Shown here piece by piece: positions 8,424-56,300 of a stretch of 64,000 nucleotides of DNA. This stretch comes from a virus. The DNA lies in IMG/VR virus record IMGVR_UViG_3300034102_001457, positions 1 to 64,000 of that record, one strand, 5' to 3'. Position numbers and translations under genes: made by a program. The notes under the pieces are model-generated. The model was not told the DNA's origin. It ran no database searches and was given only the letters and a program-made list of their open reading frames with translations. The first letter of the stretch is position 1, and the number at the start of each line of letters is the position of its first letter.

Positions 8424-8496
8424 TGGACCATAGCTCAGTTGGCAGAGCGGGAAGCTGTTAACTTCTAGGTCCCTGGTTCGAGTCCAGGTGGTCCAG
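8424..8496 (+). tRNA. tRNA-Asn(GTT)
   Basis: TGGACCA/TGGTCCA acceptor stem; GGAAG-CTGTTAA-CTTCT anticodon arm; TTCGAGT T-loop. Confidence 0.95.
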
Positions 8497-8500
8497 CGAT

Positions 8501-8574
8501 GCGAGTGTTACATAATGGTAGTGTCTCTGCCTTCCAAGCAGATAGTGCCAGTTCGATTCTGGTCACTCGCTCCA
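8501..8574 (+). tRNA. tRNA-Gly(TCC)
   Basis: GCGAGTG/CACTCGC acceptor stem; TCTGC-CTTCCAA-GCAGA; encoded CCA. Confidence 0.95.
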
Positions 8575-8575
8575 T

Positions 8576-8647
8576 ATCTCTATAGCTCAGCGGAAGAGCA
8601 ACAGGTTTCTACCCTGTGTGTCGGGAGTTCGAATCTCTCTAGGGATA
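8576..8647 (+). tRNA. tRNA-Arg(TCT)
   Basis: ATCTCTA/TAGGGAT acceptor stem; ACAGG-TTTCTAC-CCTGT; GGA in the D-loop (A20). Confidence 0.9.
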
Positions 8648-8650
8648 CAA

Positions 8651-24542: not shown

Positions 24543-27500
24543 ATGTCAAGAAGACAAATAGAACACGCATACTACGTATTTAAGCCAGAATTAGATCAGA
24601 TTATTATTCCAAGAATAGTAAGACAAGATCGATTGATGCTTATCACAAATACGACACAAGGTAAGGTCATCTACAACTTCTCCGATCCTAATTTAACTGC
24701 AATATCTTTTTCAGTAGACAATGAAGTTGGCTATGAGCCAAAGACAATTATTACTCTTAAGTACAACTGTGCATCAATGGCTGCTACCGATCAACTTGCA
24801 ATCATTGTTGACGAGCCAGCAGAAACAGTAACATTTACAGAGCCGCTTATGGATGCGGTAAATAAACTTAGAGTCGCCCCACCACAATCTTTAATGGATA
24901 CAGACTTTGAATATGGTATTCAGAGCTCTAAGTGGGAAGCCTTGGTATTAACATCAAATTACCCATCATTCTTTTCTAGAGCAACAGGCGGAAACTCATT
25001 TGACGTAGTAAGCGTAACTGGCGATGGCGCAGCGCCAAGATCTACAGTTACTGTAGTTGTTTCTAGCCCAGCAACAGAACTTGTTGCAGGAGATGTTGTT
25101 TCACTTCAAGATACAAAAAATCCTTTAGCTGAAGGAACTTTCCCAGTTGAAACAGTAAGCGCAGACGGATTTACATTTACATATTTAGCAAGCGGAATTG
25201 TTTCTGGATCAATTTCAGATGGAAGCCTTACATCAGTTACTGGTGGAGGAATCTTCGATAACGCACACATTCCAGGCGGAAACGATTCTCTCGGACTTCA
25301 AGGATGGTCTGCAAACTCAGACGGAGCAGCACAATCTACAATTACAATTACAACAAGCACAGCTCATGGACTTCTTCCAGGAACACCAATTCTAATCGGA
25401 AGCCAGAATGCAAATTGCTCAATCAAGGGATCTTGGAGAATATTTAACGTCTCAAGTCCAAATCAAATGAAGTTTAAAATGGATTCACAGGTTTCTAACC
25501 CAATTGTCACAAATGGCGTAGGACTTTATGCAAAGCCAAATGGTTATGTTCAGCACAGACCACACGATGGAGGAGTTATTCTTTCAACAACAGACAATGT
25601 CTGTGGAGTAAGAGTTATTCGTCAAACACGTCGTCACTTTAGATATCAGTCAGGAAAGTCAATTCAGTTCTCAACTGGTGTAAAGTTTACCCCTACGTTT
25701 GACGTAGATCAGATATCTGTAGCTGGAGTTTTGATTGGAAATCAGGTTGTAACAGTCCGTACAATTCAAGATCACGGAATGCAACCAGGAGCAAAAATTA
25801 AGGTAGACGGAGTTCAAACAGCAGGAACTTACAACCCATGGAATGGCAAGTTTACGGTTACAAATGTTTTAGGAACAAATGAGTTCCAATATATAATGCC
25901 TATTACACAAAATTTAACTGCTACTGATCAGTTCCCAGGAGGAGTTGACGTAACAATTACTGTTTACAAGTGGGAAGGTGCTGCAACAAGAACTGGTATG
26001 TACAATGACCAAAACGGATTCTTCCTTGAATACGATGGCACATACCTATATGCGGTTAGAAGATTCTCTAAGAAAGATCTTTTTGGTAAAATTGCTGCAA
26101 CTAAGTTTTCAAACACAATTACTGGTATAAATACAAGATTCAGAAAGCAGTTGCTGGTCGGAGACCAGATTGTTATTAAGGGAGCAAACTACACAGTTAT
26201 TGAAATTGCATCAGACACTAATATGAAGGTTAGCCCTGCATATAAGGGAGATTCTCTAACAAACTCATCTTATGTTATAACTCAAGAAATTAGAGTTCCT
26301 CAGACCGAGTGGAACGTAGACAAGCTAGATGGTAAGGGACCTTCAGGATACACATTGGACCCAGCATTGATGCAGATGGCCTACATTGACTACACATGGT
26401 ATGGTGCGGGATTTATTAGATTCGGATTTAGAGGCACAGAAGGAAATATTGTTTATTGCCACAAGATGCCTAACAACAATAGAAACACAGAAGCTTACAT
26501 GCGTTCTGGAAACCTTCCAGCAAGATATGAAGCTATTAACTCACCATTCTTTAGCACAAAGCTAAAGGCGGGATCATCAGGAATTGTTGGATCTCCATTA
26601 TCCCCAACAATGATTGTTATGTATGTTGATAGTGTTAAATTCTGGCCAGACCAAGGATTCTTGGTTATAAAAGACGACACCAATTTTGAAATTTGTTCTT
26701 ATACAATTACTAATAGAGAATATAATGCAATTGCACAAGGATATCCTGTTAATATTAACAGAAGACAGCCAATGACCTCTTATCTACAGGGTCAGGCAGT
26801 TCAGCTATCAGGATCTTCTAGCAATGCAACATATCTTCCAGATAATACTATTACAAATGGAACTGGAACTGCACAAGTTTCTGTTCAAACAATTACAAAT
26901 ACCTGTGCTCCAGTAATTAGCCACTGGGGATCATCTGTTATCATGGACGGTAAGTTTGATGATGATAAGAACTTTATCTTTACCGCTGGTATGCAGAGAT
27001 TCGTAAACGTTGCAGGTTCTGGTGAAGTTATTGCAAAGATTGCTTCAAAGTCTGCTACATCAGGTGTTGCAACAGTAACAACTGCTGCACCGCACCAGTT
27101 GCAGGTTGGATATCCAATTAGAATTTCTGACGTAAATACTTCAGCATCAATAACAAGTATTGTAAGAACTTCTGCATCTACAATAAGAGTTACAACTCAG
27201 GGTTCTCACAACTTTGTTCAAGACCAAAACGTAACTATATCAAATTCAGTTCTTTCTAGAAACCTTCAAAATGGACAGATTCAAACTACCGCAATAGTTG
27301 GTGTCTTGAACGGGATTAGAACAATATCTGCAGTGCCATCGTCAAACCAGTTCGATGTAATCCTTGCAGGTGTATATGGATACACTGCTCAGCCTCAAAC
27401 AAATTCAAGCGCTGTAGAAAGTTCAACATTTAATGGAACATTTACAGTAAGCGCAGTAACAAGCAATACAATTCAGTACACGATACCATTTGGAACTACA

Positions 27501-28103
27501 ATTCCAACAAGTATTGTTACCCCTCAAGGATCCGCTTCACAGAGCTTTGGTTCTTCAGCAATTGCAAGACCACTTCTTTCAATCAGAATTGCTCCTTCAG
27601 CAGATAATGGAATTGGAAGAAATTACGGTAAGAGAGAAACTCTTAACACTATGCAGCTAGCACTAAGTTCGCTTGGTATTCTTGCTCAGGGAGCATTCTT
27701 GATTCAGGGTATATATAACCCATCAGCTTTCCCTACTGGAGTAAACCTTCCAGGCGATTGGGAAACTATTAGAATCCCTGGTGGATCTCTAGCACAGGTT
27801 ATCTACCATGATAATACTGGTAGAACAGGTTCTACTGTAACCAACCCTATAACAACAATCAGAGGTGGAGATCAGGCGTTTGCTTTCTACACCGACGGTA
27901 CTGGTGGTACAAACTACTCAGCTACAACATTTGATTTGTCAAAGGTTAAGGATCTTGGAACATCAATTCTTTCTGGTGATGGAAACTTTAAAGCACCAGG
28001 ATTCCCAAATGGTCCAGATATTTTAACAATCGTCGCAACAAACCTAGGATTAACATCTGGAGATATTTCAGCCCGTTTATCTTGGACAGAAGCTCAGGCA
28101 TAA
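24543..28103 (+). CDS. Large virion structural protein (beta-rich repeats)
   Basis: 1186 aa with repeated T...HG/L..G...I modules. Confidence 0.7.
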   Translation: MSRRQIEHAYYVFKPELDQIIIPRIVRQDRLMLITNTTQGKVIYNFSDPNLTAISFSVDNEVGYEPKTIITLKYNCASMAATDQLAIIVDEPAETVTFTEPLMDAVNKLRVAPPQSLMDTDFEYGIQSSKWEALVLTSNYPSFFSRATGGNSFDVVSVTGDGAAPRSTVTVVVSSPATELVAGDVVSLQDTKNPLAEGTFPVETVSADGFTFTYLASGIVSGSISDGSLTSVTGGGIFDNAHIPGGNDSLGLQGWSANSDGAAQSTITITTSTAHGLLPGTPILIGSQNANCSIKGSWRIFNVSSPNQMKFKMDSQVSNPIVTNGVGLYAKPNGYVQHRPHDGGVILSTTDNVCGVRVIRQTRRHFRYQSGKSIQFSTGVKFTPTFDVDQISVAGVLIGNQVVTVRTIQDHGMQPGAKIKVDGVQTAGTYNPWNGKFTVTNVLGTNEFQYIMPITQNLTATDQFPGGVDVTITVYKWEGAATRTGMYNDQNGFFLEYDGTYLYAVRRFSKKDLFGKIAATKFSNTITGINTRFRKQLLVGDQIVIKGANYTVIEIASDTNMKVSPAYKGDSLTNSSYVITQEIRVPQTEWNVDKLDGKGPSGYTLDPALMQMAYIDYTWYGAGFIRFGFRGTEGNIVYCHKMPNNNRNTEAYMRSGNLPARYEAINSPFFSTKLKAGSSGIVGSPLSPTMIVMYVDSVKFWPDQGFLVIKDDTNFEICSYTITNREYNAIAQGYPVNINRRQPMTSYLQGQAVQLSGSSSNATYLPDNTITNGTGTAQVSVQTITNTCAPVISHWGSSVIMDGKFDDDKNFIFTAGMQRFVNVAGSGEVIAKIASKSATSGVATVTTAAPHQLQVGYPIRISDVNTSASITSIVRTSASTIRVTTQGSHNFVQDQNVTISNSVLSRNLQNGQIQTTAIVGVLNGIRTISAVPSSNQFDVILAGVYGYTAQPQTNSSAVESSTFNGTFTVSAVTSNTIQYTIPFGTTIPTSIVTPQGSASQSFGSSAIARPLLSIRIAPSADNGIGRNYGKRETLNTMQLALSSLGILAQGAFLIQGIYNPSAFPTGVNLPGDWETIRIPGGSLAQVIYHDNTGRTGSTVTNPITTIRGGDQAFAFYTDGTGGTNYSATTFDLSKVKDLGTSILSGDGNFKAPGFPNGPDILTIVATNLGLTSGDISARLSWTEAQA

Positions 28104-48993: not shown

Positions 48994-51900
48994 ATGGCTG
49001 ACGAAACAATCAGTACCAAGATAGTCGCTAATGCCGACTTTTCAGGTCTTATCGCCGATGTGCATAAGGTTACAGCCAGCCTATCAAAACTTCAGGAAAA
49101 ATTAGCTAGCTCTAATAAGATGATGGCAAATCAAATTGCCGTCATGAACAGATCATTTTCTGACACACTAAGAAGTACAGGTCAGTTCTCCACACACTTT
49201 GTAAGTTTAACTTCAGATGTAGAAAAGTTTGGAAAAAATCTAGATAGCGGAAAGTTAAAGTTAAATCAATACTTTAATGCTTTTAGAGATCAGACTAAAA
49301 CATCTGGTGGTCTTATTAGAGATCTAGCAAAACAACAGGTAGCATTACAAAACTCAGTTCTTCAGCCACTTGGAAGAAATGCACAAGGTCTTATGCAGTT
49401 CAATGTTCAGGTTCCAAGAGGACTTGATACAGTAAAGAACGCTGCAGCGCTAGCAAGAACAGAACTTCAAATTATGAATAAGGTTGTCCAGGATGGTGCT
49501 GGTCAGATTATTAACTTTGGTAAAAATACTCAGTGGACAGGTCGTCAGTTAACAGTCGGACTTACCGTACCGCTAGTAGCATTTGGCAACGCCGCTGCAA
49601 AAGCTTTTAGAGAAGCAGATCAAGAATTAGTAAGATTAACAAAGGTTTACGGTGATGTTGCAGGAACTTCTGCAGTAGAGCTTGGCAAAGTAAGAGATGA
49701 TGTTGTTCAGACATCAAAAGAAATTTCACAGGCTATGGGAGTTTCCTTTAAAGAAACAATTGCATTAGCGGCAGATATTGCAGCAACTGGAAAAACTGGA
49801 GACGATCTTTTAGGATCAGTAAGGGAAACAACCAGGCTAGCAGTGCTTGGTGAAGTAGACCGTCAAGAAGCAATGAAAGCAACACTCGCTATTCAATCAG
49901 CTTTTAAGCAAAATACAGATGAGCTTTCAGAATCTATTAACTTCCTTAACGCAGTTGAAAACCAAACTTCAACAACTCTAAATGACCTCGTAGAAGCTAT
50001 TCCAAAAGCAGGTCCAGTTATTCAAGGATTGGGAGGAAGCGTACAAGACTTAGCTCTTTACTTAACTGCTATGCGTGAAGGTGGCATTAATGCATCAGAA
50101 GGTGCAAACGCATTAAAGTCAGCACTAGCGTCTTTGATTAACCCAACAGATGTAGCTGTTAAAAAGTTTCAAGGACTCGGCATAGATTTACTCGGTGTAG
50201 TAAATAACAATGCTGGAAATCTTACTGGCACACTAATGGCATTACAAGGAGCTTTAGATAGTTTAGATCCACTGCAGAAGCAGCAAGCGATTGAACAACT
50301 ATTTGGAAAGTTTCAATTTTCAAGACTAAATGCTCTTTTTGAAAACTTAGGAAGACAAGGAAGTCAGACCTTACAGGTTTTGGATTTAATGAATCAGTCT
50401 ACTGCAGGATTAGCTCAGGTGGCTGATCGAGAATTAACAGCAGTAACAGAGTCAGCATCTGGTAAATATAGAAGAGCTCTAGAAGGGCTAAAGGCTTCTC
50501 TAGCCGAAGTAGGAGAACAATTTTTACAAATTAATACTGTTTTAATTACAGTAATAGATAAGATAGTTCAGTTTGCTATGAACTTGCCTGGCCCAGTTAA
50601 GCAGATACTAGCCCTACTTGGTGGAGTTACAGCAATAGCTGGCCCACTTATTATGTTAACTGGTCTTCTTGCAAACTTCTTTGGTAACATGGCAAAGGGT
50701 GTATTCCATATAAAGGCTTTCCTAAAAGGTGGAGAAGGCTTTAAATATTTAACCCCAGAAATGCTAGCAGCGGAAAAAGCTGGCAAGCTAGTAGAACAAT
50801 CTTTTTATAGTGATGCTAAAGCAGCAGCAGTACTACAACAAGCGCTAAGAAATTTATTAGATGAATTCTCTCTACTAGAAGCAAAGGCAAAATCTGGATC
50901 AATAGCTGTAAATCCAGCAGTCAGCACAATGGCTGGGAATCTTGTTATGGCAAGCGGAAGAGTTGTTAACCCAGCACATCCTCTAGTTGGCGCAATGGGA
51001 TCTCGTGCAAGCACTCATATGGTTCCTAGATCTGGAATGACAGAGACTGAAAGACTTCAGCAAACAATATTTGGAATGGTTCCAGGATCAATCCCAGTAA
51101 ATCAAAAAATTGGTCAAAACCCTCAAATATATATGAATGATAATTTGCCAGATGTTCCTGGACTTACTAAAATAGGTGGAACATCAACTGGAATTGTTGC
51201 AGGCGAAGCTGCAAAGCACCACGCAATGATGGCAACACTTGCAATGCAATCTAAAGCAGAAATAGACGAGCTTAAGAAGCAAATGGTTGCAACTGGATTA
51301 TTAAGTAAAGACTTTATGAATCAATTTGATGACATATTGCCAATTGTTTCAAAGCTAACAGATAACGCTGCAAGAGAGTCTGCGCTAATTGTTTCTGAAT
51401 TACGTGCAGGTAAACTAAACGTTGAGCAAGCTAGAGCAAAAATTATAGCATTAAATCTAGAAACTGAAAGAATGATTTCTTCATCCATGCAGGCTCATGC
51501 AGTTTCAATGGGAAGAACTATAAACCCAACAATGGTTCCTACATTAAACCAGCCTGTAGTAGATGCTACTGGCAAATCTAATATGAGAGAGCTATTCAAA
51601 AAAGGAAAGACTAGAGACTTTATTAATAAAGTAGCTGGAGCCCTAGGAGTGAGAACTTCAGGAGCAGGATATAATATTGAAACAACAGTTCCAAAAAGAT
51701 TAAATAGAGGAAACATTGTTCCAGGAACTGGCAATACAGATACAGTTCCAGCAATGCTTACCCCAGGAGAATTTGTTGTAAATAAAGAAGCAACCGCAGA
51801 AAATCTTCCTTTATTGCATGCAATCAATCAAGGCAACTTCGGAGGATCGGTATCTTCTGAAACTAGAAATTATGGTCCTATAAATCCAGCTCTTATGGCA

Positions 51901-54900
51901 AGTGTTGGAAAGATGTTTTCTAGAACTGGAAGTTTTGCTAGAAGATGGTTCTGGGATACAAGCACAGGATCAAGCCTTGCTGGACAAAGAAGTTCTTTAA
52001 TTAGATCTATTTCTAAAAGACCTATTTTAAATAGAAATGGAGTTCCTTACACAGAAGCAGAATTAAGAAAAGCGCCAAAAGAAGAAATACAATCCTTATG
52101 GGCTAATTATGATAGAGGTCACGTAGCCCCACACAGATCAATCAGCGGAAGCGACAGTTACTTTGCGCCAGGAATACTCATGCCTATGTTTAGGGGCTCT
52201 AATAGATCTATGATTAGCGGTGGAGATCCTGTAGCAATTGCAAAAAGTTTAGAAACCCAATCAATTCATCCAACAGTATTTTTAGATGAAGCGGCAGAAG
52301 CATTTGGATATACGGCTGGTGCAAGAACAGATGCTGCTTATAATGCACTTGTAAAAGCTTTATATGGCAGAGGTAATAAAAAGTTTGATCCAAAGTCTGG
52401 GGACTCTTTTGAAAAATTTGCATTTGACACAATCTCTCCATTTTTAAAAAATATTAAAAACGGTAGTGGCGCAAATCTTCTAGATGATCTTTCAAGAATT
52501 GGAACATTAAGAGGAACTCAATCTAATAGATCTTCTACTGGATCTGGAATAGGTTCTATAGGACCGTATGCAATTGCAGATGATTACTTTAATCTTAAAA
52601 TGAATTCTGGTGGAATGGTTCCAGGTTACAACGCAGGCGGAGTTATAGGAAATGTATTAAAGAGCACTGCATTTAAAAACCTAGGAGCAAAATTTGGTAA
52701 GATAGGAGATAGTTGGGGAGCCACTTCTCTATCTCTTGGCATGGGAAAGAAATTATTTGGAAGTTCAGGGCTTACTCCTAAAGCACAAAACTTAATGTAT
52801 GGAAAGCTCATCAGCAATCTTGAAAAAGAAAGACCGTATGGATATGTGACAAATGCTCAAGGACATCTTCAAAGAGCTTTAGAGCCAGATATTGTAGACA
52901 TACTTCTTAAATCATCAGCTAGCGATGTACTTAGTTCGGGCGGGAAAAGCTTAAGTAAAATTGATAGAGAAATATTGCGAACTAAATATGCAAACTGGGA
53001 CTCAAAATCATGGACTCCATCAACGTCTAAAATAAGAAAACAAATGTTTGGAATGAACAAGGGTGGAATGGTGCCAGGAGTTCAATACCTTAATGAAGGC
53101 GGAATGGTACAGGGCACCCAATATCTGGAAGATGGAGGAGAAGTTGCTCCCCGTAGAGGTGGAATGATAAGAGGTCTAATTGCTGGATCAGCAGTTGGCC
53201 TAGGCGGACAAATGCTTGGATCAAAGGTTGGCGGACCAATTGGAACTGCTATACAAATAGCATCTATGATTGCAAGCATGGGAATGGGCTTTGGCGCAGG
53301 CGGAGGTACAAAAGGTGGCGGGATGGTATCTAGACAAATGGATAAAATTCCTACTCAGTTAAAGCAACCAATAGGTCCATTAAATGGATTGGCACAGGCA
53401 GCAGCAAAAACTGGAGGAAGTCTTTCAGGAATACTAAGAGTATTTGGTCCGCTTCTTAAGGGATTCTCAACATTACTTAAGTTAACTAGTCCTTTAGGAT
53501 TAGCAATTACTGGACTGACCGCAGGCATAGGTTTATTTGTTAAGATAAAAAGAGAACAAGCAAAGGCTTTAGAGACAGGAAGACTTGCATACGGTATGGA
53601 TGCAGAGGCTGCTGAAAAGGCAGGCTTTAAATATACTGACTATAACGCTAAAATTAAAACAGCCATTGAAGATGCAAAAGCATTAAAAGAAAAAAATATA
53701 ATGGTTTATGAAAGCATGACAAGAGCTAACGTTCCAATGACTATGACAATTGAGCAATACAAAAAGCTTAAGGAACAAGTAAAGTCAACAATGGGAAGCT
53801 ATATAGATCTATTTAGCCAAACAGATAGAAAAGATGTTGGCACAGTAGCTGTTCAATTAAAGGCACAGTTTATGGCAGCAGGAGATTCTGCAGAAACTGC
53901 TACAGCTAAAATATTTACAATGATTAAGCAGTCTGAAAATGCTAACATGGCTGCACAGGCAATTAGCACTAATGCCTTCCAAAGCATTCAAAATATGGAG
54001 CAGGCTTCGGCACAGACAGTAAAAACTTTTGAGGCTGCAATGAAAACTGGAGATGCTGAATCGCAAGCCAGAGCATTGCACAGTGTATTCCAAGCAATGG
54101 ATGCAAGCCTACAGTCAACTGTCGATGAGCAAAAGAAGTTGGGAGATACTGGAGAAGATACTGCAAATAGAGTTGCTTCAGCGGTTGAAAATAAGTTAAA
54201 TAAAATCAACCAGCTATTTGGCACTCAGGCAAATCTATCTGAGGATGTTATTAACGAAATAGGAAAGACAGACCCACTTTTGGCTGAGATGCTCAATGAC
54301 ACAGATACACTAAATAGCGCATGGGCTAAGTATAGATTAACTATTAGCGGAGTTGCTATGAATTTCCAATTCATGAGTGGCGAAGCAGCAATTGCCGCAA
54401 ATCAATTAAATGAAATAGTAAAGGCCCAGGTTCAGCTTAATCCTGCTGTTGTAGCCGCAAACAAAACATATAAGGGCATGACTGATGAGATTGCAAGACT
54501 TGAAAAAGCCCAAAAGGGACAATCTGTAAAAGCTCAATATAATGCTAAAGAAGAAACCGATAGATTACAAAAACAAATTGCAGCAATTAAAAAAGCTGCT
54601 CAAGATAAAATTGAAGGAATTCGCAAAGCAACTGATGCAGAAAATACTCAGTTAGAAATTCAGAAGGCTCAGCTAAGAGCTCAACAGCAATTAATCCAAG
54701 GCAATATGTCTGCATATGCTGAAGAGCAAATGACTATTGAGCAGTTAATGAATGAGTCTAATCGTAAAGATGCAGAGGAAGCAATTCTTGCTAAGGCCGA
54801 CATTGACATTAAGCCTCTTCAGGATAAGCTAGATGCTATGGCAGACAAGCAAGAAGCCATGGCCAAGAAGGCGGCTCTTGCTGGGGAAAGCCTAACTGGA

Positions 54901-55797
54901 CTAAGATCTAAAGCTGATACATATAATTCTGGATTAACAGAGTACACAACTAATCTTAATAACCTAATGCTAAAGCTCCAGATAGAGGGAGATAAGTTTA
55001 AGATGACTGATGAGTTTAAGACAACCATGACTGCCCTTGAAAAGCTAGGAACATCTTTAGGCATAAAGACCACACCTCAACAAGTATTAGATCAAATTGG
55101 TGCAGCACTTTCTAAAAATCAAATTTTAGCACAAGAGGTTAATATATTAACTGGTAAGATTAGAGATGGAAGCATAACTGGATCTGGAACATTTAAAGAC
55201 CCATTTAGCTTAGGTGCACAAGGCATTGGAACCAAGGGAGATATTCAGGGTGCAAGCCTTAAGAATTATGGAAACGTATTAAAAGACTTTGGTGAAATAG
55301 GAATTAGCCAGAAGCTTAAGAACTTTGCTTACAAGCAAGGCTTAGTAATGGGAGATTATTTTTCAGCAGAAGACGAAAAGGGACTTGTTTCTGTGTTTAA
55401 GGTAAAAGATGAAGACGGAAATATTGAAAGAGTAAAAAATCCTTATGTAAAGAAATGGGGCGGCGGACCAGTAGTTAAAGGACAAACATATGCTACAAAT
55501 GATAAGCTTAATGCTCTAGGATATCAGCAAGAAGGCTTTATACCGTTTACTCCACAAGTGAGTGGAACTATTTATCCAAATATTGCCACTATGCCGAGAT
55601 ACGATATTGGCTCTAATACTAAAATGACTGGGGTTAATATTAGCAATAGCCCAAGCAGCAACAACGTTTATAATATTGATATAGCGCTAAATGGTACAAC
55701 CGTTACTGCAGAAGATGTAATGCGTAGCTTTAAGAGAGAGCTTGCGTTAGTCAATGCAAAAGAAGGAATTGACAGAAGATTTGGAGGAAGCCACTAA
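48994..55797 (+). CDS. Tape measure protein
   Basis: 2267 aa, helical; TMP core motifs; DTVPAMLTPGEFVV. Confidence 0.92.
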   Translation: MADETISTKIVANADFSGLIADVHKVTASLSKLQEKLASSNKMMANQIAVMNRSFSDTLRSTGQFSTHFVSLTSDVEKFGKNLDSGKLKLNQYFNAFRDQTKTSGGLIRDLAKQQVALQNSVLQPLGRNAQGLMQFNVQVPRGLDTVKNAAALARTELQIMNKVVQDGAGQIINFGKNTQWTGRQLTVGLTVPLVAFGNAAAKAFREADQELVRLTKVYGDVAGTSAVELGKVRDDVVQTSKEISQAMGVSFKETIALAADIAATGKTGDDLLGSVRETTRLAVLGEVDRQEAMKATLAIQSAFKQNTDELSESINFLNAVENQTSTTLNDLVEAIPKAGPVIQGLGGSVQDLALYLTAMREGGINASEGANALKSALASLINPTDVAVKKFQGLGIDLLGVVNNNAGNLTGTLMALQGALDSLDPLQKQQAIEQLFGKFQFSRLNALFENLGRQGSQTLQVLDLMNQSTAGLAQVADRELTAVTESASGKYRRALEGLKASLAEVGEQFLQINTVLITVIDKIVQFAMNLPGPVKQILALLGGVTAIAGPLIMLTGLLANFFGNMAKGVFHIKAFLKGGEGFKYLTPEMLAAEKAGKLVEQSFYSDAKAAAVLQQALRNLLDEFSLLEAKAKSGSIAVNPAVSTMAGNLVMASGRVVNPAHPLVGAMGSRASTHMVPRSGMTETERLQQTIFGMVPGSIPVNQKIGQNPQIYMNDNLPDVPGLTKIGGTSTGIVAGEAAKHHAMMATLAMQSKAEIDELKKQMVATGLLSKDFMNQFDDILPIVSKLTDNAARESALIVSELRAGKLNVEQARAKIIALNLETERMISSSMQAHAVSMGRTINPTMVPTLNQPVVDATGKSNMRELFKKGKTRDFINKVAGALGVRTSGAGYNIETTVPKRLNRGNIVPGTGNTDTVPAMLTPGEFVVNKEATAENLPLLHAINQGNFGGSVSSETRNYGPINPALMASVGKMFSRTGSFARRWFWDTSTGSSLAGQRSSLIRSISKRPILNRNGVPYTEAELRKAPKEEIQSLWANYDRGHVAPHRSISGSDSYFAPGILMPMFRGSNRSMISGGDPVAIAKSLETQSIHPTVFLDEAAEAFGYTAGARTDAAYNALVKALYGRGNKKFDPKSGDSFEKFAFDTISPFLKNIKNGSGANLLDDLSRIGTLRGTQSNRSSTGSGIGSIGPYAIADDYFNLKMNSGGMVPGYNAGGVIGNVLKSTAFKNLGAKFGKIGDSWGATSLSLGMGKKLFGSSGLTPKAQNLMYGKLISNLEKERPYGYVTNAQGHLQRALEPDIVDILLKSSASDVLSSGGKSLSKIDREILRTKYANWDSKSWTPSTSKIRKQMFGMNKGGMVPGVQYLNEGGMVQGTQYLEDGGEVAPRRGGMIRGLIAGSAVGLGGQMLGSKVGGPIGTAIQIASMIASMGMGFGAGGGTKGGGMVSRQMDKIPTQLKQPIGPLNGLAQAAAKTGGSLSGILRVFGPLLKGFSTLLKLTSPLGLAITGLTAGIGLFVKIKREQAKALETGRLAYGMDAEAAEKAGFKYTDYNAKIKTAIEDAKALKEKNIMVYESMTRANVPMTMTIEQYKKLKEQVKSTMGSYIDLFSQTDRKDVGTVAVQLKAQFMAAGDSAETATAKIFTMIKQSENANMAAQAISTNAFQSIQNMEQASAQTVKTFEAAMKTGDAESQARALHSVFQAMDASLQSTVDEQKKLGDTGEDTANRVASAVENKLNKINQLFGTQANLSEDVINEIGKTDPLLAEMLNDTDTLNSAWAKYRLTISGVAMNFQFMSGEAAIAANQLNEIVKAQVQLNPAVVAANKTYKGMTDEIARLEKAQKGQSVKAQYNAKEETDRLQKQIAAIKKAAQDKIEGIRKATDAENTQLEIQKAQLRAQQQLIQGNMSAYAEEQMTIEQLMNESNRKDAEEAILAKADIDIKPLQDKLDAMADKQEAMAKKAALAGESLTGLRSKADTYNSGLTEYTTNLNNLMLKLQIEGDKFKMTDEFKTTMTALEKLGTSLGIKTTPQQVLDQIGAALSKNQILAQEVNILTGKIRDGSITGSGTFKDPFSLGAQGIGTKGDIQGASLKNYGNVLKDFGEIGISQKLKNFAYKQGLVMGDYFSAEDEKGLVSVFKVKDEDGNIERVKNPYVKKWGGGPVVKGQTYATNDKLNALGYQQEGFIPFTPQVSGTIYPNIATMPRYDIGSNTKMTGVNISNSPSSNNVYNIDIALNGTTVTAEDVMRSFKRELALVNAKEGIDRRFGGSH

Positions 55798-56300
55798 TGC
55801 CTATGATTTTACCTAGAGGTTCGGTTTTGAGTATAGAGGCAAAAGACCTTCTAGCAACTCCAGAAGGAACTACTAAAATTTGGAATAAGATTACTGAGCA
55901 CAACAGATCAGACATTGGCATGTCCATAGAAAGAATTGAAAAGGTTGTAAGAACTTCTAACGGAACTTTAAGAAAGAACTATATTGCAGACAAAAGAAGG
56001 TTCTCTATGTCTTGGACAATGCTTCCATCTTATCGCACATTAACAGTTGACGGTGCATGGGGAGCAGAAGATTTAAGATCATTCTATTTAAGCGATGACG
56101 GCAAAAAAGAATTTAATATAAGACTTAACCTGGCAAAGGGTGGGGCAGATACATCTTCTTCAGGTGCCCTATATACGCCAAACATGGCAAAGACATCATC
56201 AGAGCTTTATACGGTGGTATTTGGAGGCTGTAATTTTTCAGTTGTAAAACGTGGTCTACAGCCACACTGGAATGTTTCTATTGAACTGGAAGAGGTATAA
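55797..56300 (+). CDS. Distal tail-like protein
   Basis: Immediately follows the TMP. Confidence 0.6.
   Translation: MPMILPRGSVLSIEAKDLLATPEGTTKIWNKITEHNRSDIGMSIERIEKVVRTSNGTLRKNYIADKRRFSMSWTMLPSYRTLTVDGAWGAEDLRSFYLSDDGKKEFNIRLNLAKGGADTSSSGALYTPNMAKTSSELYTVVFGGCNFSVVKRGLQPHWNVSIELEEV

What the first reader, a model, noticed from the sequence alone, without database searches (positions are those of the whole stretch)
51700..53145. Tape measure protein carries motif-delimited cargo, including a DRGH nuclease-like segment
Seen: the TMP is interrupted by ~480 aa of non-TMP-like sequence punctuated by a repeated motif: LNRGNIVPG (51700), NFGGSV, MNSGGMVPG-YNAGGV (52600) and MNKGGMVPG-YLNEGGMVQG-YLEDGGEV (53053-53145). 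The first bracketed segment contains YDRGHVAP (52108) followed by MPMFRGSN. Established: DRGH..P...P....N is the active-site signature of NucA/EndoG-type His-Me nucleases, and TMPs are ejected into the host cell. Inference: the TMP is a polymorphic delivery vehicle in which GG-motifs mark processing or shuffling joints. An injected nuclease could degrade host nucleic acid or generate the ssDNA that activates the PafBC-type early promoters (speculative link).
Basis: partly seen in the sequence, partly recalled or inferred. Interest (0 to 1): 0.8.

Follow-up and report, generated by a model that had tools for sequence, protein, structure and literature searches.

The report
Swappable modules inside a phage tape measure
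The tail tape measure protein of an uncultured lake siphophage carries two folded domains of unknown fold between conserved glycine-rich linkers. Related phages exchange or delete these domains exactly at the linkers. The 'DRGH nuclease' look of one domain is a conserved Arg-x-His...Asn site, not demonstrable membership of the NucA/EndoG nuclease family.

Summary
All motifs lie where stated, in a 2267-aa TP901-type tape measure protein (TMP, 48994-55797). The motif N-x-G-[GN]-x-[VI]-[PQ]-G occurs 4 times against 0.0016 expected.

The 'shuffling joints' idea is supported:
- AlphaFold2 gives two compact domains, A (aa 958-1202, pLDDT 81) and B (core aa 1217-1355, pLDDT about 90).
- The GG motifs around B fall in segments with pLDDT below 50.
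- One relative is about 90% identical in DNA on both sides of A but 51-55% identical across A.
- Other relatives lack B, and the deletion ends lie inside two GG motifs.
- Among about 120 homologues, the A slot holds about five families unrelated to A, plus two distantly related ones.

The nuclease reading is not supported as family membership:
- Pfam, NCBIfam and PDB profiles give no hit, and PF01223 finds nothing at E<=10.
- No nuclease appears in Foldseek or VIA-align searches (best Z 3.9).
- The Asp and Gly of DRGH vary.

However, [RK]-x-His and an Asn 27 residues later are invariant in all 33 A-family members. [RK]-x-His is also kept in two distantly related cassette families. The predicted local structure is strand, strands, then helix. 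A new His-Me-like enzyme therefore remains possible at about 25-30%.

Both domains are orphans found only in TMPs. The processing and PafBC ideas are untested.

The parts
48994..55797 (+). Tape measure protein gene, 2267 aa
   Evidence: ORF and translation. PF10145 E 4.9e-31. Matches 12 PHROG tape-measure families, best phrog_10030 at E 7e-119. It lies between an Ig-domain protein gene and minor tail / tail protein genes.
50593..50691 (+). Hydrophobic, transmembrane-like segment 1 (aa 534-566)
   Evidence: Kyte-Doolittle 19-residue mean reaches 2.09, and there is a 23-residue uncharged run.
51700..51864 (+). M1 'leader' (aa 903-957): LNRGNIVPG-TGNTDTVPAMLTPGEFV ... NFGGSV
   Evidence: It is the most widely conserved piece: 117 of about 120 homologues match it, and 65 of those match more than once, up to 6 times. 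It matches short stretches of several PHROG TMP families. The left breakpoint of the module A swap lies at its 3' end.
51865..52599 (+). Module A (aa 958-1202): a replaceable globular domain with no match to a known fold
   Evidence: AF2 model has pLDDT 81.4 and pTM 0.79. Only 5 representatives among 1.84 billion proteins match it, and all are TMPs or TMP fragments. No Pfam, NCBIfam or PDB match. No fold match; best Z is 3.9.
52111..52122 (+). DRGH (aa 1040-1043); His1043 is invariant
   Evidence: Alignment A2. [RK][GSTA]H followed by a hydrophobic residue is present in 33/33 A-family, 11/11 s2 and 8/8 s4 cassettes. It sits at the end of predicted strand 82-86 of the model.
52201..52203 (+). 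Asn1070, invariant, 27 residues after His1043
   Evidence: Invariant column N113 in A2. It lies in predicted helix 110-117, directly after strand 105-109.
52600..52647 (+). GG linker 2 (MNSGGMVPG-YNAGGV, aa 1203-1218)
   Evidence: pLDDT below 50 in the model of aa 1195-1400. It holds both the right breakpoint of the A swap and the left end of the B deletion.
52642..53058 (+). Module B core (aa 1217-1355): an optional alpha/beta domain with no match to a known fold
   Evidence: AF2 residues 23-161 have pLDDT of about 90. It is present in 90 of about 120 homologues and cleanly absent from others. Best fold match is Z 4.9.
53053..53151 (+). GG linker 3: three tandem motifs (MNKGGMVPG, LNEGGMVQG, LEDGGEV)
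   Evidence: pLDDT below 50. The right end of the B deletion lies in the second copy.
53161..53331 (+). Glycine zipper (six GxxxG between aa 1390 and 1417, then a Gly-rich stretch to aa 1446)
   Evidence: Glycine zippers in TMPs and in the T6SS DNase effector Tde1 are discussed in PMC10240207.
53482..53550 (+). Hydrophobic, transmembrane-like segment 2 (aa 1497-1519)
   Evidence: Kyte-Doolittle mean 1.62 and a 20-residue uncharged run.

Best explanation
The centre of this TMP is a modular insert, not a coiled-coil ruler. In order it contains:
- a conserved leader (M1: N-x-G-N-x-V-P-G-x-G-N-T-D-x-V-P-A-M-L-T-P-G-E-F-V);
- a replaceable globular domain of about 245 aa (A);
- a GG linker;
- an optional domain of about 140 aa (B);
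- a triple GG linker;
- a glycine zipper and a hydrophobic segment.

Shown:
- A and B fold on their own in prediction.
- The GG motifs around B are predicted disordered.
- The GG motifs are the places where relatives have exchanged A or lost B.
- A is restricted to TMPs.
- A keeps an invariant [RK]-x-His ... Asn pair on a predicted strand-strands-helix element.

Inferred:
- The motifs are kept at protein level as flexible joints. This may let folded or partly folded domains be packed into and threaded out of the tail tube.
- Their conserved coding sequence gives the microhomology at which cassettes recombine.
- On ejection, the two hydrophobic or glycine-zipper regions (aa 534-566 and 1390-1519) insert into the host membrane, and the modules between them come to lie at or inside the envelope.
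- There, A most likely acts as a small metal-dependent hydrolase. Its substrate (nucleic acid or an envelope polymer) is not established.
- The turnover of cassettes reflects adaptation to different hosts or host defences.
For: TMP identity.

Motif excess.

Domain and linker structure: A has pLDDT 81.4 and pTM 0.79. The B core has pLDDT of about 90, with both flanking motif regions below 50.

Mosaicism at protein level:
- A is found in 30 homologues by direct BLAST and B in 90, and they assort independently.
- For example, P0016 has A at 31% and B at 95% identity, while P0009 has A at 84% and no B.

Mosaicism at DNA level:
- L008 and L009 are about 90% identical from 47.9 to 51.8 kb, 51-55% from 51.9 to 52.5 kb, and 93% again at 52.66 kb.
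- L004 and L007 are about 80% identical throughout but lack B.
- The junctions lie at the end of M1, inside SGG[MI][VI]PGYNAGG, and inside MNSGGMVP / NEGGMVQG.
- The two copies flanking B in the window share GGTGGAATGGTnCCAGG.

Slot diversity:
- The A-family has 33 proteins.
- hhalign links s2 to it (probability 96%, E 2.6e-9) and s4 (91%, E 1e-6).
- s5, s6-like, s7, s16 and class 2 score below 1%.

Conserved site:
- His86 and Asn113 of A (His1043 and Asn1070) are invariant, and R84 is at least 90% conserved.
- [RK][GSTA]H is present in 33/33, 11/11 and 8/8 members of A, s2 and s4.
- Predicted strands 82-86, 91-93, 99-102 and 105-109 are followed by helix 110-117.

Restriction to TMPs.

Hydrophobic segments and glycine zipper. 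Literature context: PMC10240207.
Against: - No biochemical function is shown for A or B. Neither resembles any solved or viral predicted structure.
- An invariant His and Asn could serve binding or folding rather than catalysis.
- The flexible-joint reading rests on low AF2 confidence for a monomer. In the trimeric TMP inside the tube, the motifs could be ordered.
- Membrane insertion and the final location of the modules are inferred from hydropathy alone.
- The cassette classes come from about 120 proteins chosen by similarity to this region, so their frequencies are not population estimates.
Confidence: 0.6

Rival explanations
1. Module A is a His-Me finger (beta-beta-alpha-metal) nuclease of the NucA/EndoG/Serratia type, or a new family with the same active site. 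It is carried into the cell on the ejected TMP, where it cuts host nucleic acid.
For: - The local pattern D-R-G-H-x-A-P ... P-x5-N matches, by my own knowledge, the spacing around His89, Pro113 and Asn119 of Serratia nuclease.
- His1043 and Asn1070 are invariant, and Arg1041 is R or K in all members.
- The same [RK]-x-H strand is kept in the distantly related s2 (ERSH/ERGH) and s4 (QRTH) cassettes.
- In the model, the His ends a strand and the Asn lies in the helix that follows the last strand.
- DRGH is expected 0.0023 times by chance.
Against: - PF01223 finds nothing in the phage at E<=10, while it rings in 4 control genomes.
- Pfam and NCBIfam give no family for A, for divergent A members, or for TMPs of s2 and s4 type.
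- A PDB profile search finds no nuclease.
- VIA-align against 48,161 chains and Foldseek against the PDB and viral models list no nuclease above noise. The best hit is AddB at Z 3.9, and two HNH entries appear only at E above 1.
- The rest of the model is mostly helical, not the six-stranded sheet of the family (own knowledge).
- The Asp varies (D/E/Q/H) and the Gly varies (G/S/T).
Confidence: 0.25
2. A and B act on the cell envelope: hydrolysis or binding of wall polymers. This would be like the Rpf-like and M23 motifs embedded in mycobacteriophage TMPs and the muralytic domain of T5 Pb2. They are swapped because hosts differ in their walls.
For: - TMP-embedded wall hydrolases are established (own knowledge: Pedulla 2003; Piuri and Hatfull 2006; Boulanger 2008; reviewed in PMC6116005, listed).
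- Some long relatives of this TMP carry an OmpA-family (PF00691) peptidoglycan-binding domain.
- Cassette turnover fits host-surface diversity.
Against: - A, B and the whole TMP have no match to any lysozyme, transglycosylase, M23, NlpC/P60 or amidase model.
- Neither model has a structural match to such folds.
Confidence: 0.3
3. The modules are not enzymes. They are structural spacers, assembly plugs or decoys. Their variability is drift, or escape from host defences that sense the TMP. The GG motifs are simply tolerated low-complexity linkers.
For: - Both are orphan folds with no catalytic family match.
- B can be deleted without replacement in natural relatives.
- Defence systems that sense TMPs are reported (papers listed, not read in depth).
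Against: - The GG motifs and M1 are conserved at protein level across TMPs whose flanking sequence has diverged beyond recognition.
- His, Asn and about 20 other positions of A are invariant at about 30% overall identity.
- The [RK]-x-H strand persists in cassettes that share little else.
Confidence: 0.15
4. The GG motifs are proteolytic processing sites, by the prohead or tail protease or by self-cleavage. They would release A and B as free proteins in the virion or the host. This does not exclude the other readings.
For: - The motifs are exposed and predicted disordered.
- They are conserved beyond the needs of a linker.
- TMPs such as lambda gpH are known to be processed (own knowledge).
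Against: - No protease-site consensus or autoprocessing domain was found.
- Proteins that begin at MLTPGEFV (P0124, P0125, P0062) are most simply gene calls starting at an internal Met in a truncated or mis-started TMP gene, not evidence of cleavage.
Confidence: 0.15

Closest known systems
TP901-1-family tail tape measure proteins (Pfam PF10145 / TIGR01760-type)
   Same: - N-terminal PhageMin_Tail domain.
- Position in the tail gene module.
- Hydrophobic segments.
- Long helical C-terminal half.
   Different: It carries a central insert of about 480 aa. The insert consists of two globular domains of unknown fold between repeated N-x-G-G-x-V-P-G linkers. The first slot is exchangeable.
Mycobacteriophage TMPs with embedded Rpf-like and M23 motifs, and phage T5 Pb2
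   Same: A functional non-ruler domain sits inside a TMP and is delivered with it at infection (own knowledge; review PMC6116005 listed).
   Different: Those inserts belong to known wall-hydrolase families. Here no hydrolase family is detectable. Motif-bounded cassette exchange has not, to my knowledge, been described for them.
DNA/RNA non-specific endonucleases (Serratia NucA, Anabaena NucA, EndoG; Pfam PF01223, DRGH His-Me finger)
   Same: - The local string DRGHxAP.
- A Pro six residues before an invariant Asn.
- His at a strand end and Asn in the following helix.
   Different: - No HMM or profile match.
- No fold match.
- The Asp and Gly of the motif vary.
- The rest of the domain is predicted mainly helical.
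Polymorphic toxin systems (Rhs, CdiA, and the phage MuF-toxin fusions of Jamet et al. 2017)
   Same: A conserved delivery scaffold carries alternative, unrelated domains. The domains are exchanged at short conserved motifs.
   Different: - The variable part is internal, not C-terminal.
- No cassette matches a known toxin family.
- There is no adjacent immunity-like gene: the next ORF (55797-56300) starts at the TMP stop codon and gives only a PHROG match of unknown function (phrog_1194).
Glycine-zipper translocation region of the T6SS DNase Tde1 and of Burkholderia TMPs (PMC10240207)
   Same: A run of GxxxG repeats lies next to a delivered domain. Here there are six between aa 1390 and 1417.
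   Different: Here the zipper follows the modules instead of preceding a C-terminal toxin. Its role is inferred only.

Membership tests
NucA/EndoG/Serratia non-specific endonucleases (PF01223, DRGH) | Significant match to the family profile | tested here: not met
   PF01223 searched six-frame in the phage record gives no match at E<=10, while 4 control genomes ring. hmmscan of A, of divergent A members, and of TMPs of s2 and s4 type at E<=10 finds no nuclease family. NCBIfam finds none.
NucA/EndoG/Serratia non-specific endonucleases (PF01223, DRGH) | D-R-G-H motif conserved, with the catalytic His | tested here: inconclusive
   The His is invariant, the Arg is R or K in all members, the Asp is D/E/Q/H and the Gly is G/S (T in s4).
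NucA/EndoG/Serratia non-specific endonucleases (PF01223, DRGH) | Metal-ligand Asn about 30 residues after the His, at the start of a helix | tested here: met
   Asn1070 is invariant, lies 27 residues after the His, and falls in predicted helix 110-117 after strand 105-109.
NucA/EndoG/Serratia non-specific endonucleases (PF01223, DRGH) | Overall fold like solved members | tested here: inconclusive
   No nuclease of this family is listed by Foldseek (PDB or viral models), VIA-align wide, or pdb_via. The best Z is 3.9.
NucA/EndoG/Serratia non-specific endonucleases (PF01223, DRGH) | Mg-dependent nuclease activity | not testable with these tools
   Needs purified protein.
His-Me finger (beta-beta-alpha-metal) superfamily in general | Hairpin with His at the end of strand 1, followed by a helix bearing the metal ligand | tested here: inconclusive
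   The DSSP string of the model fits: strands 82-86 ... 105-109, then helix 110-117. Two HNH entries appear only at E above 1.
TP901-family tape measure protein | PF10145 domain and position in the tail module | tested here: met
   E 4.9e-31. Flanked by an Ig-domain protein gene upstream and minor tail / tail protein genes downstream.
TMP-embedded wall hydrolases (Rpf/lysozyme-like, M23, NlpC/P60) | Match to a muralytic family profile | tested here: not met
   No such family is found for the whole TMP or its segments at E<=1 to 10.
Polymorphic toxin systems | Alternative unrelated domains exchanged at a conserved motif on a conserved scaffold | tested here: met
Polymorphic toxin systems | Variable domain is a recognisable toxin with an adjacent immunity gene | tested here: not met
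   No toxin family was detected. The cassette is internal to the TMP. The next ORF (55797-56300) starts at the TMP stop codon, so there is no room for an immunity gene, and its only family match is a PHROG of unknown function.

The most novel reading that the evidence does not exclude
The TMPs of this lineage of large lake siphophages are polymorphic effector carriers. Each M1 leader introduces an exchangeable effector domain, with up to six leader-cassette units in relatives of 3000-4000 aa. The A/s2/s4 cassettes form a previously unrecognised His-Me-type nuclease family that is injected ahead of the DNA.
Probability: 0.2. Interest if true: 0.8.

Novelty: new variant of a known kind. Interest (0 to 1): 0.55.

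Why it matters
TMPs are usually treated as rulers that also open the membrane. Here part of a TMP behaves like a cassette holder. It has conserved glycine-rich joints, a conserved leader, and alternative domains of unknown fold that recombine between otherwise near-identical genes. If the cassettes are enzymes or effectors, these phages deliver a variable set of proteins into the host before their DNA. That bears on host range, on defences that sense TMPs, and on how folded domains travel through a tail tube. The A, B and other cassette families are also a source of protein folds with no solved relative.

Tried and rejected
- Sequence family searches for A and B found no family: Pfam, PHROGs and NCBIfam. 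Only M1 hits short stretches of PHROG TMP families.
- PDB searches by sequence and by profile found no nuclease. The best hits are designed armadillo repeats at E 0.03.
- The Endonuclease_NS profile found nothing in the phage record.
- Fold searches for A found nothing above Z 3.9: Foldseek PDB, Foldseek viral, VIA-align wide and pdb_via.
- Fold searches for B gave a best Z of 4.9, to a helical part of phenylalanine ammonia-lyase. I treat this as noise.
- ESM Atlas returned only unnamed viral clusters below 0.9 for A and B.
- GenBank phages gave no match, by megablast of the gene or by tblastn of A.
- Two genome-contig scans, with the A alignment and the B core, found no relative. No prophage and no host assignment came from this route.
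I therefore could not fetch genuine Endonuclease_NS sequences for a profile-profile comparison.
I therefore aligned distant homologues as whole proteins and checked the region by eye.
- Single-linkage clustering first merged most cassettes into one class through a shared leader of about 50 aa. I rejected that grouping after sub-clustering and hhalign.
- A full-text search for the PGEFV motif found nothing relevant.

Full report
**What is there.** The window is the first 64 kb of a 79.9-kb IMG/VR virus record, estimated 63% complete. It has about 39% G+C.

The ORF 48994-55797 encodes a 2267-aa protein:
- It has a PhageMin_Tail domain (PF10145, aa 240-438, E 4.9e-31).
- It matches 12 PHROG tape-measure families over its first 650-950 residues.
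- It lies downstream of the portal, head protease and a virion structural (head-category) protein gene, and of an Ig-domain protein gene, and upstream of minor tail and tail protein genes.

It is the tape measure protein (TMP) of a siphophage.

**The observation.**
- LNRGNIVPG at aa 903.
- NFGGSV at aa 949.
- DRGH at aa 1040-1043.
- MNSGGMVPG-YNAGGV at aa 1203.
- MNKGGMVPG, LNEGGMVQG and LEDGGEV at aa 1354-1385.

The pattern N.G[GN].[VI][PQ]G occurs four times, against 0.0016 expected. No shuffle out of 20000 reaches four, even when only the Gly-rich centre is shuffled. DRGH is expected 0.0023 times.

**Anatomy of the insert.** I predicted two structures from alignments that include distant homologues.

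- Module A (aa 958-1202) gives a confident model, with pLDDT 81.4 and pTM 0.79. It has an N-terminal helical part, four short strands (model residues 82-86, 91-93, 99-102, 105-109), a helix at 110-117, five further helices and a C-terminal hairpin.
- The stretch aa 1195-1400 gives a compact alpha/beta core at aa 1217-1355 (module B, pLDDT about 90). Both motif regions, aa 1195-1216 and 1356-1400, fall below pLDDT 50.

For B, then, the GG motifs sit in predicted flexible linkers next to a folded domain.

Hydropathy finds a strong transmembrane-like segment at aa 534-566 and another at aa 1497-1519. Six GxxxG repeats (a glycine zipper) lie at aa 1390-1417, directly after the last GG motif. Glycine zippers next to delivered domains have been discussed for TMPs and for the T6SS DNase Tde1 (PMC10240207).

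**Relatives and mosaicism.** A word-indexed search with aa 880-1400 found 1632 proteins. The best 120 are almost all TMPs of 2000-4000 aa from metagenomes.

- Against these, the first ~950 residues and the C-terminal half are widely shared, but the centre is patchy.
- By direct BLAST, A occurs in 30 and B in 90.
- The two assort independently. P0016 has A at 31% and B at 95% identity. P0009 has A at 84% and no B.

The DNA shows this directly:
- Loci L008 and L009 are about 90% identical to the window from 47.9 to 51.8 kb.
- They fall to 51-55% across 51.9-52.5 kb, which is module A.
- They return to 93% at 52.66 kb.
- Loci L004 and L007 are about 80% identical throughout, A included, but lack B.

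At base resolution:
- The left edge of the A swap lies at the 3' end of the M1 leader.
- The right edge lies inside the codons for SGG[MI][VI]PGYNAGG.
- The B deletion runs from inside MNSGGMVP to inside NEGGMVQG.
- The two copies that flank B in the window share GGTGGAATGGTnCCAGG.

**How many kinds of cassette.** I cut out the piece between each M1 leader and the next GG motif in all homologues. I then clustered the pieces and compared the classes by hhalign.

| Class | Proteins | Relation to A by hhalign |
|---|---|---|
| A-family | 33 | - |
| s2 | 11 | probability 96%, E 2.6e-9, over 130 columns |
| s4 | 8 | probability 91%, E 1e-6 |
| s5, s6-like, s7, s16, class 2 | 52 together | below 1% |

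The slot thus holds about five families unrelated to A, plus a superfamily made of A, s2 and s4.

In the 3000-4000-aa relatives the M1 leader recurs up to six times, each time followed by a different piece. Some of these relatives carry an OmpA-family domain.

**Is A a DRGH nuclease?**

Evidence against family membership:
- Pfam gives no family at E<=10 for A, for A members only about 30% identical to it, or for whole TMPs of s2 and s4 type.
- NCBIfam gives none.
- The Endonuclease_NS profile finds nothing in the phage record at E<=10, although it rings in four control genomes.
- A profile of A against all PDB sequences finds no nuclease.
- Foldseek against the PDB and viral models, VIA-align against 48,161 representative chains, and a second look at Foldseek's list show nothing above Z 3.9. 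No member of the family is listed.
- A full HMMER pass over 1.84 billion representatives finds only five proteins, all TMPs or TMP fragments.
- In the alignment, the Asp of DRGH is D, E, Q or H, and the Gly is G or S.

Evidence that the site matters:
- His1043 and Asn1070 are invariant in the 25-row alignment A2, and the [RK]-x-His motif is present in all 33 A-family proteins. The preceding Arg is R or K throughout. Two prolines between His and Asn are invariant.
- The s2 cassettes have ERSH or ERGH and the s4 cassettes have QRTH, on a similar hydrophobic strand directly after the GG linker. The counts are 11/11 and 8/8. The unrelated classes s5, s7, s16 and class 2 have no such motif, and only 5 of 19 s6-like cassettes do.
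- The His ends a predicted strand, and the Asn lies in the helix after the last strand.
- By my own knowledge of Serratia nuclease (His89 as general base, Asn119 as Mg ligand, Pro113 six residues before it), the local spacing is a good match.

My reading is that A is not a demonstrable member of the NucA/EndoG family, and its overall fold looks different. A new scaffold carrying a His-Me-like site is not excluded. I put that at about 25%. I had no access to model coordinates and no prediction jobs left, so I could not test the local geometry.

**Module B.** B is more widespread than A and is dispensable in nature. It has no family, no fold match (best Z 4.9) and no informative Atlas neighbour. 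Its function is open.

**Most likely mechanism.**

Shown:
- Two modules predicted to fold independently.
- Linkers flanking B that are predicted disordered.
- Exchange and deletion at those motifs.
- A conserved His/Asn site.
- Restriction of A to TMPs.

Inferred:
- The motifs are kept at protein level as joints that allow globular domains to be carried in, and threaded out of, the tail tube.
- Their conserved codons supply microhomology for cassette exchange.
- After ejection, the hydrophobic and glycine-zipper regions insert into the membrane.
- The modules between them then act at or inside the envelope.
- A acts as a small metal-dependent hydrolase whose substrate is not known.

The main rivals are:
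- an envelope-directed role, as in mycobacteriophage TMPs and T5 Pb2;
- a non-enzymatic structural or decoy role;
- processing at the motifs, which would be compatible with any of the others.

The proposed link to ssDNA and PafBC-type promoters was not examined, and nothing found here bears on it.

**Novelty.** TMPs with embedded functional motifs are known. Motif-bounded exchange of domains is known from polymorphic toxins, including phage MuF fusions. What I did not find described is a TMP with a conserved leader and glycine-rich joints that delimit exchangeable internal domains of unknown fold. I class it as a new variant of a known kind. The same stretch was noted once more in this scan, from an overlapping window.

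**Limits.**
- Relatives cannot be drawn for virus records.
- The host is not identified.
- The cassette census rests on about 120 proteins selected by similarity to this region.

Noticed in passing
relatives P0066, P0074, P0093, P0110-P0114 (protein ids): In TMPs of 3000-4000 aa, the M1 leader (..VPG.G..D.VPA.L.PGEFV..) recurs 3 to 6 times. Each copy is followed by a different piece of 200-700 aa. The protein therefore looks like an array of leader-cassette units.
   Followed up: partly
relatives P0084, P0092, P0095, P0096, P0099, P0104; P0074: Some long relatives carry an OmpA-family peptidoglycan-binding domain (PF00691) inside the TMP. One carries an EF-hand-type match (PF13202). Both come from the precomputed Pfam column.
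   Followed up: no
window 53161-53331 and 53482-53550: Directly after the last GG motif come six consecutive GxxxG repeats (aa 1390-1417) and then a transmembrane-like segment (aa 1497-1519). With the segment at aa 534-566, they bracket the whole modular insert.
   Followed up: partly
window 8424-8648: Three adjacent tRNA genes on the + strand: Asn-GTT, Gly-TCC and Arg-TCT.
   Followed up: no
window 24543-28103: A 1186-aa ORF matches PHROG 'virion structural protein' families (phrog_5838, E 5e-228). It lies far upstream of the head and tail modules.
   Followed up: no
relatives P0072, P0073 (cassette residues ~213 onward): A further cassette class (s6-like) carries FDRAHTKP. This resembles the DRGHVAP strand of module A, although hhalign does not link the classes.
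   Followed up: no
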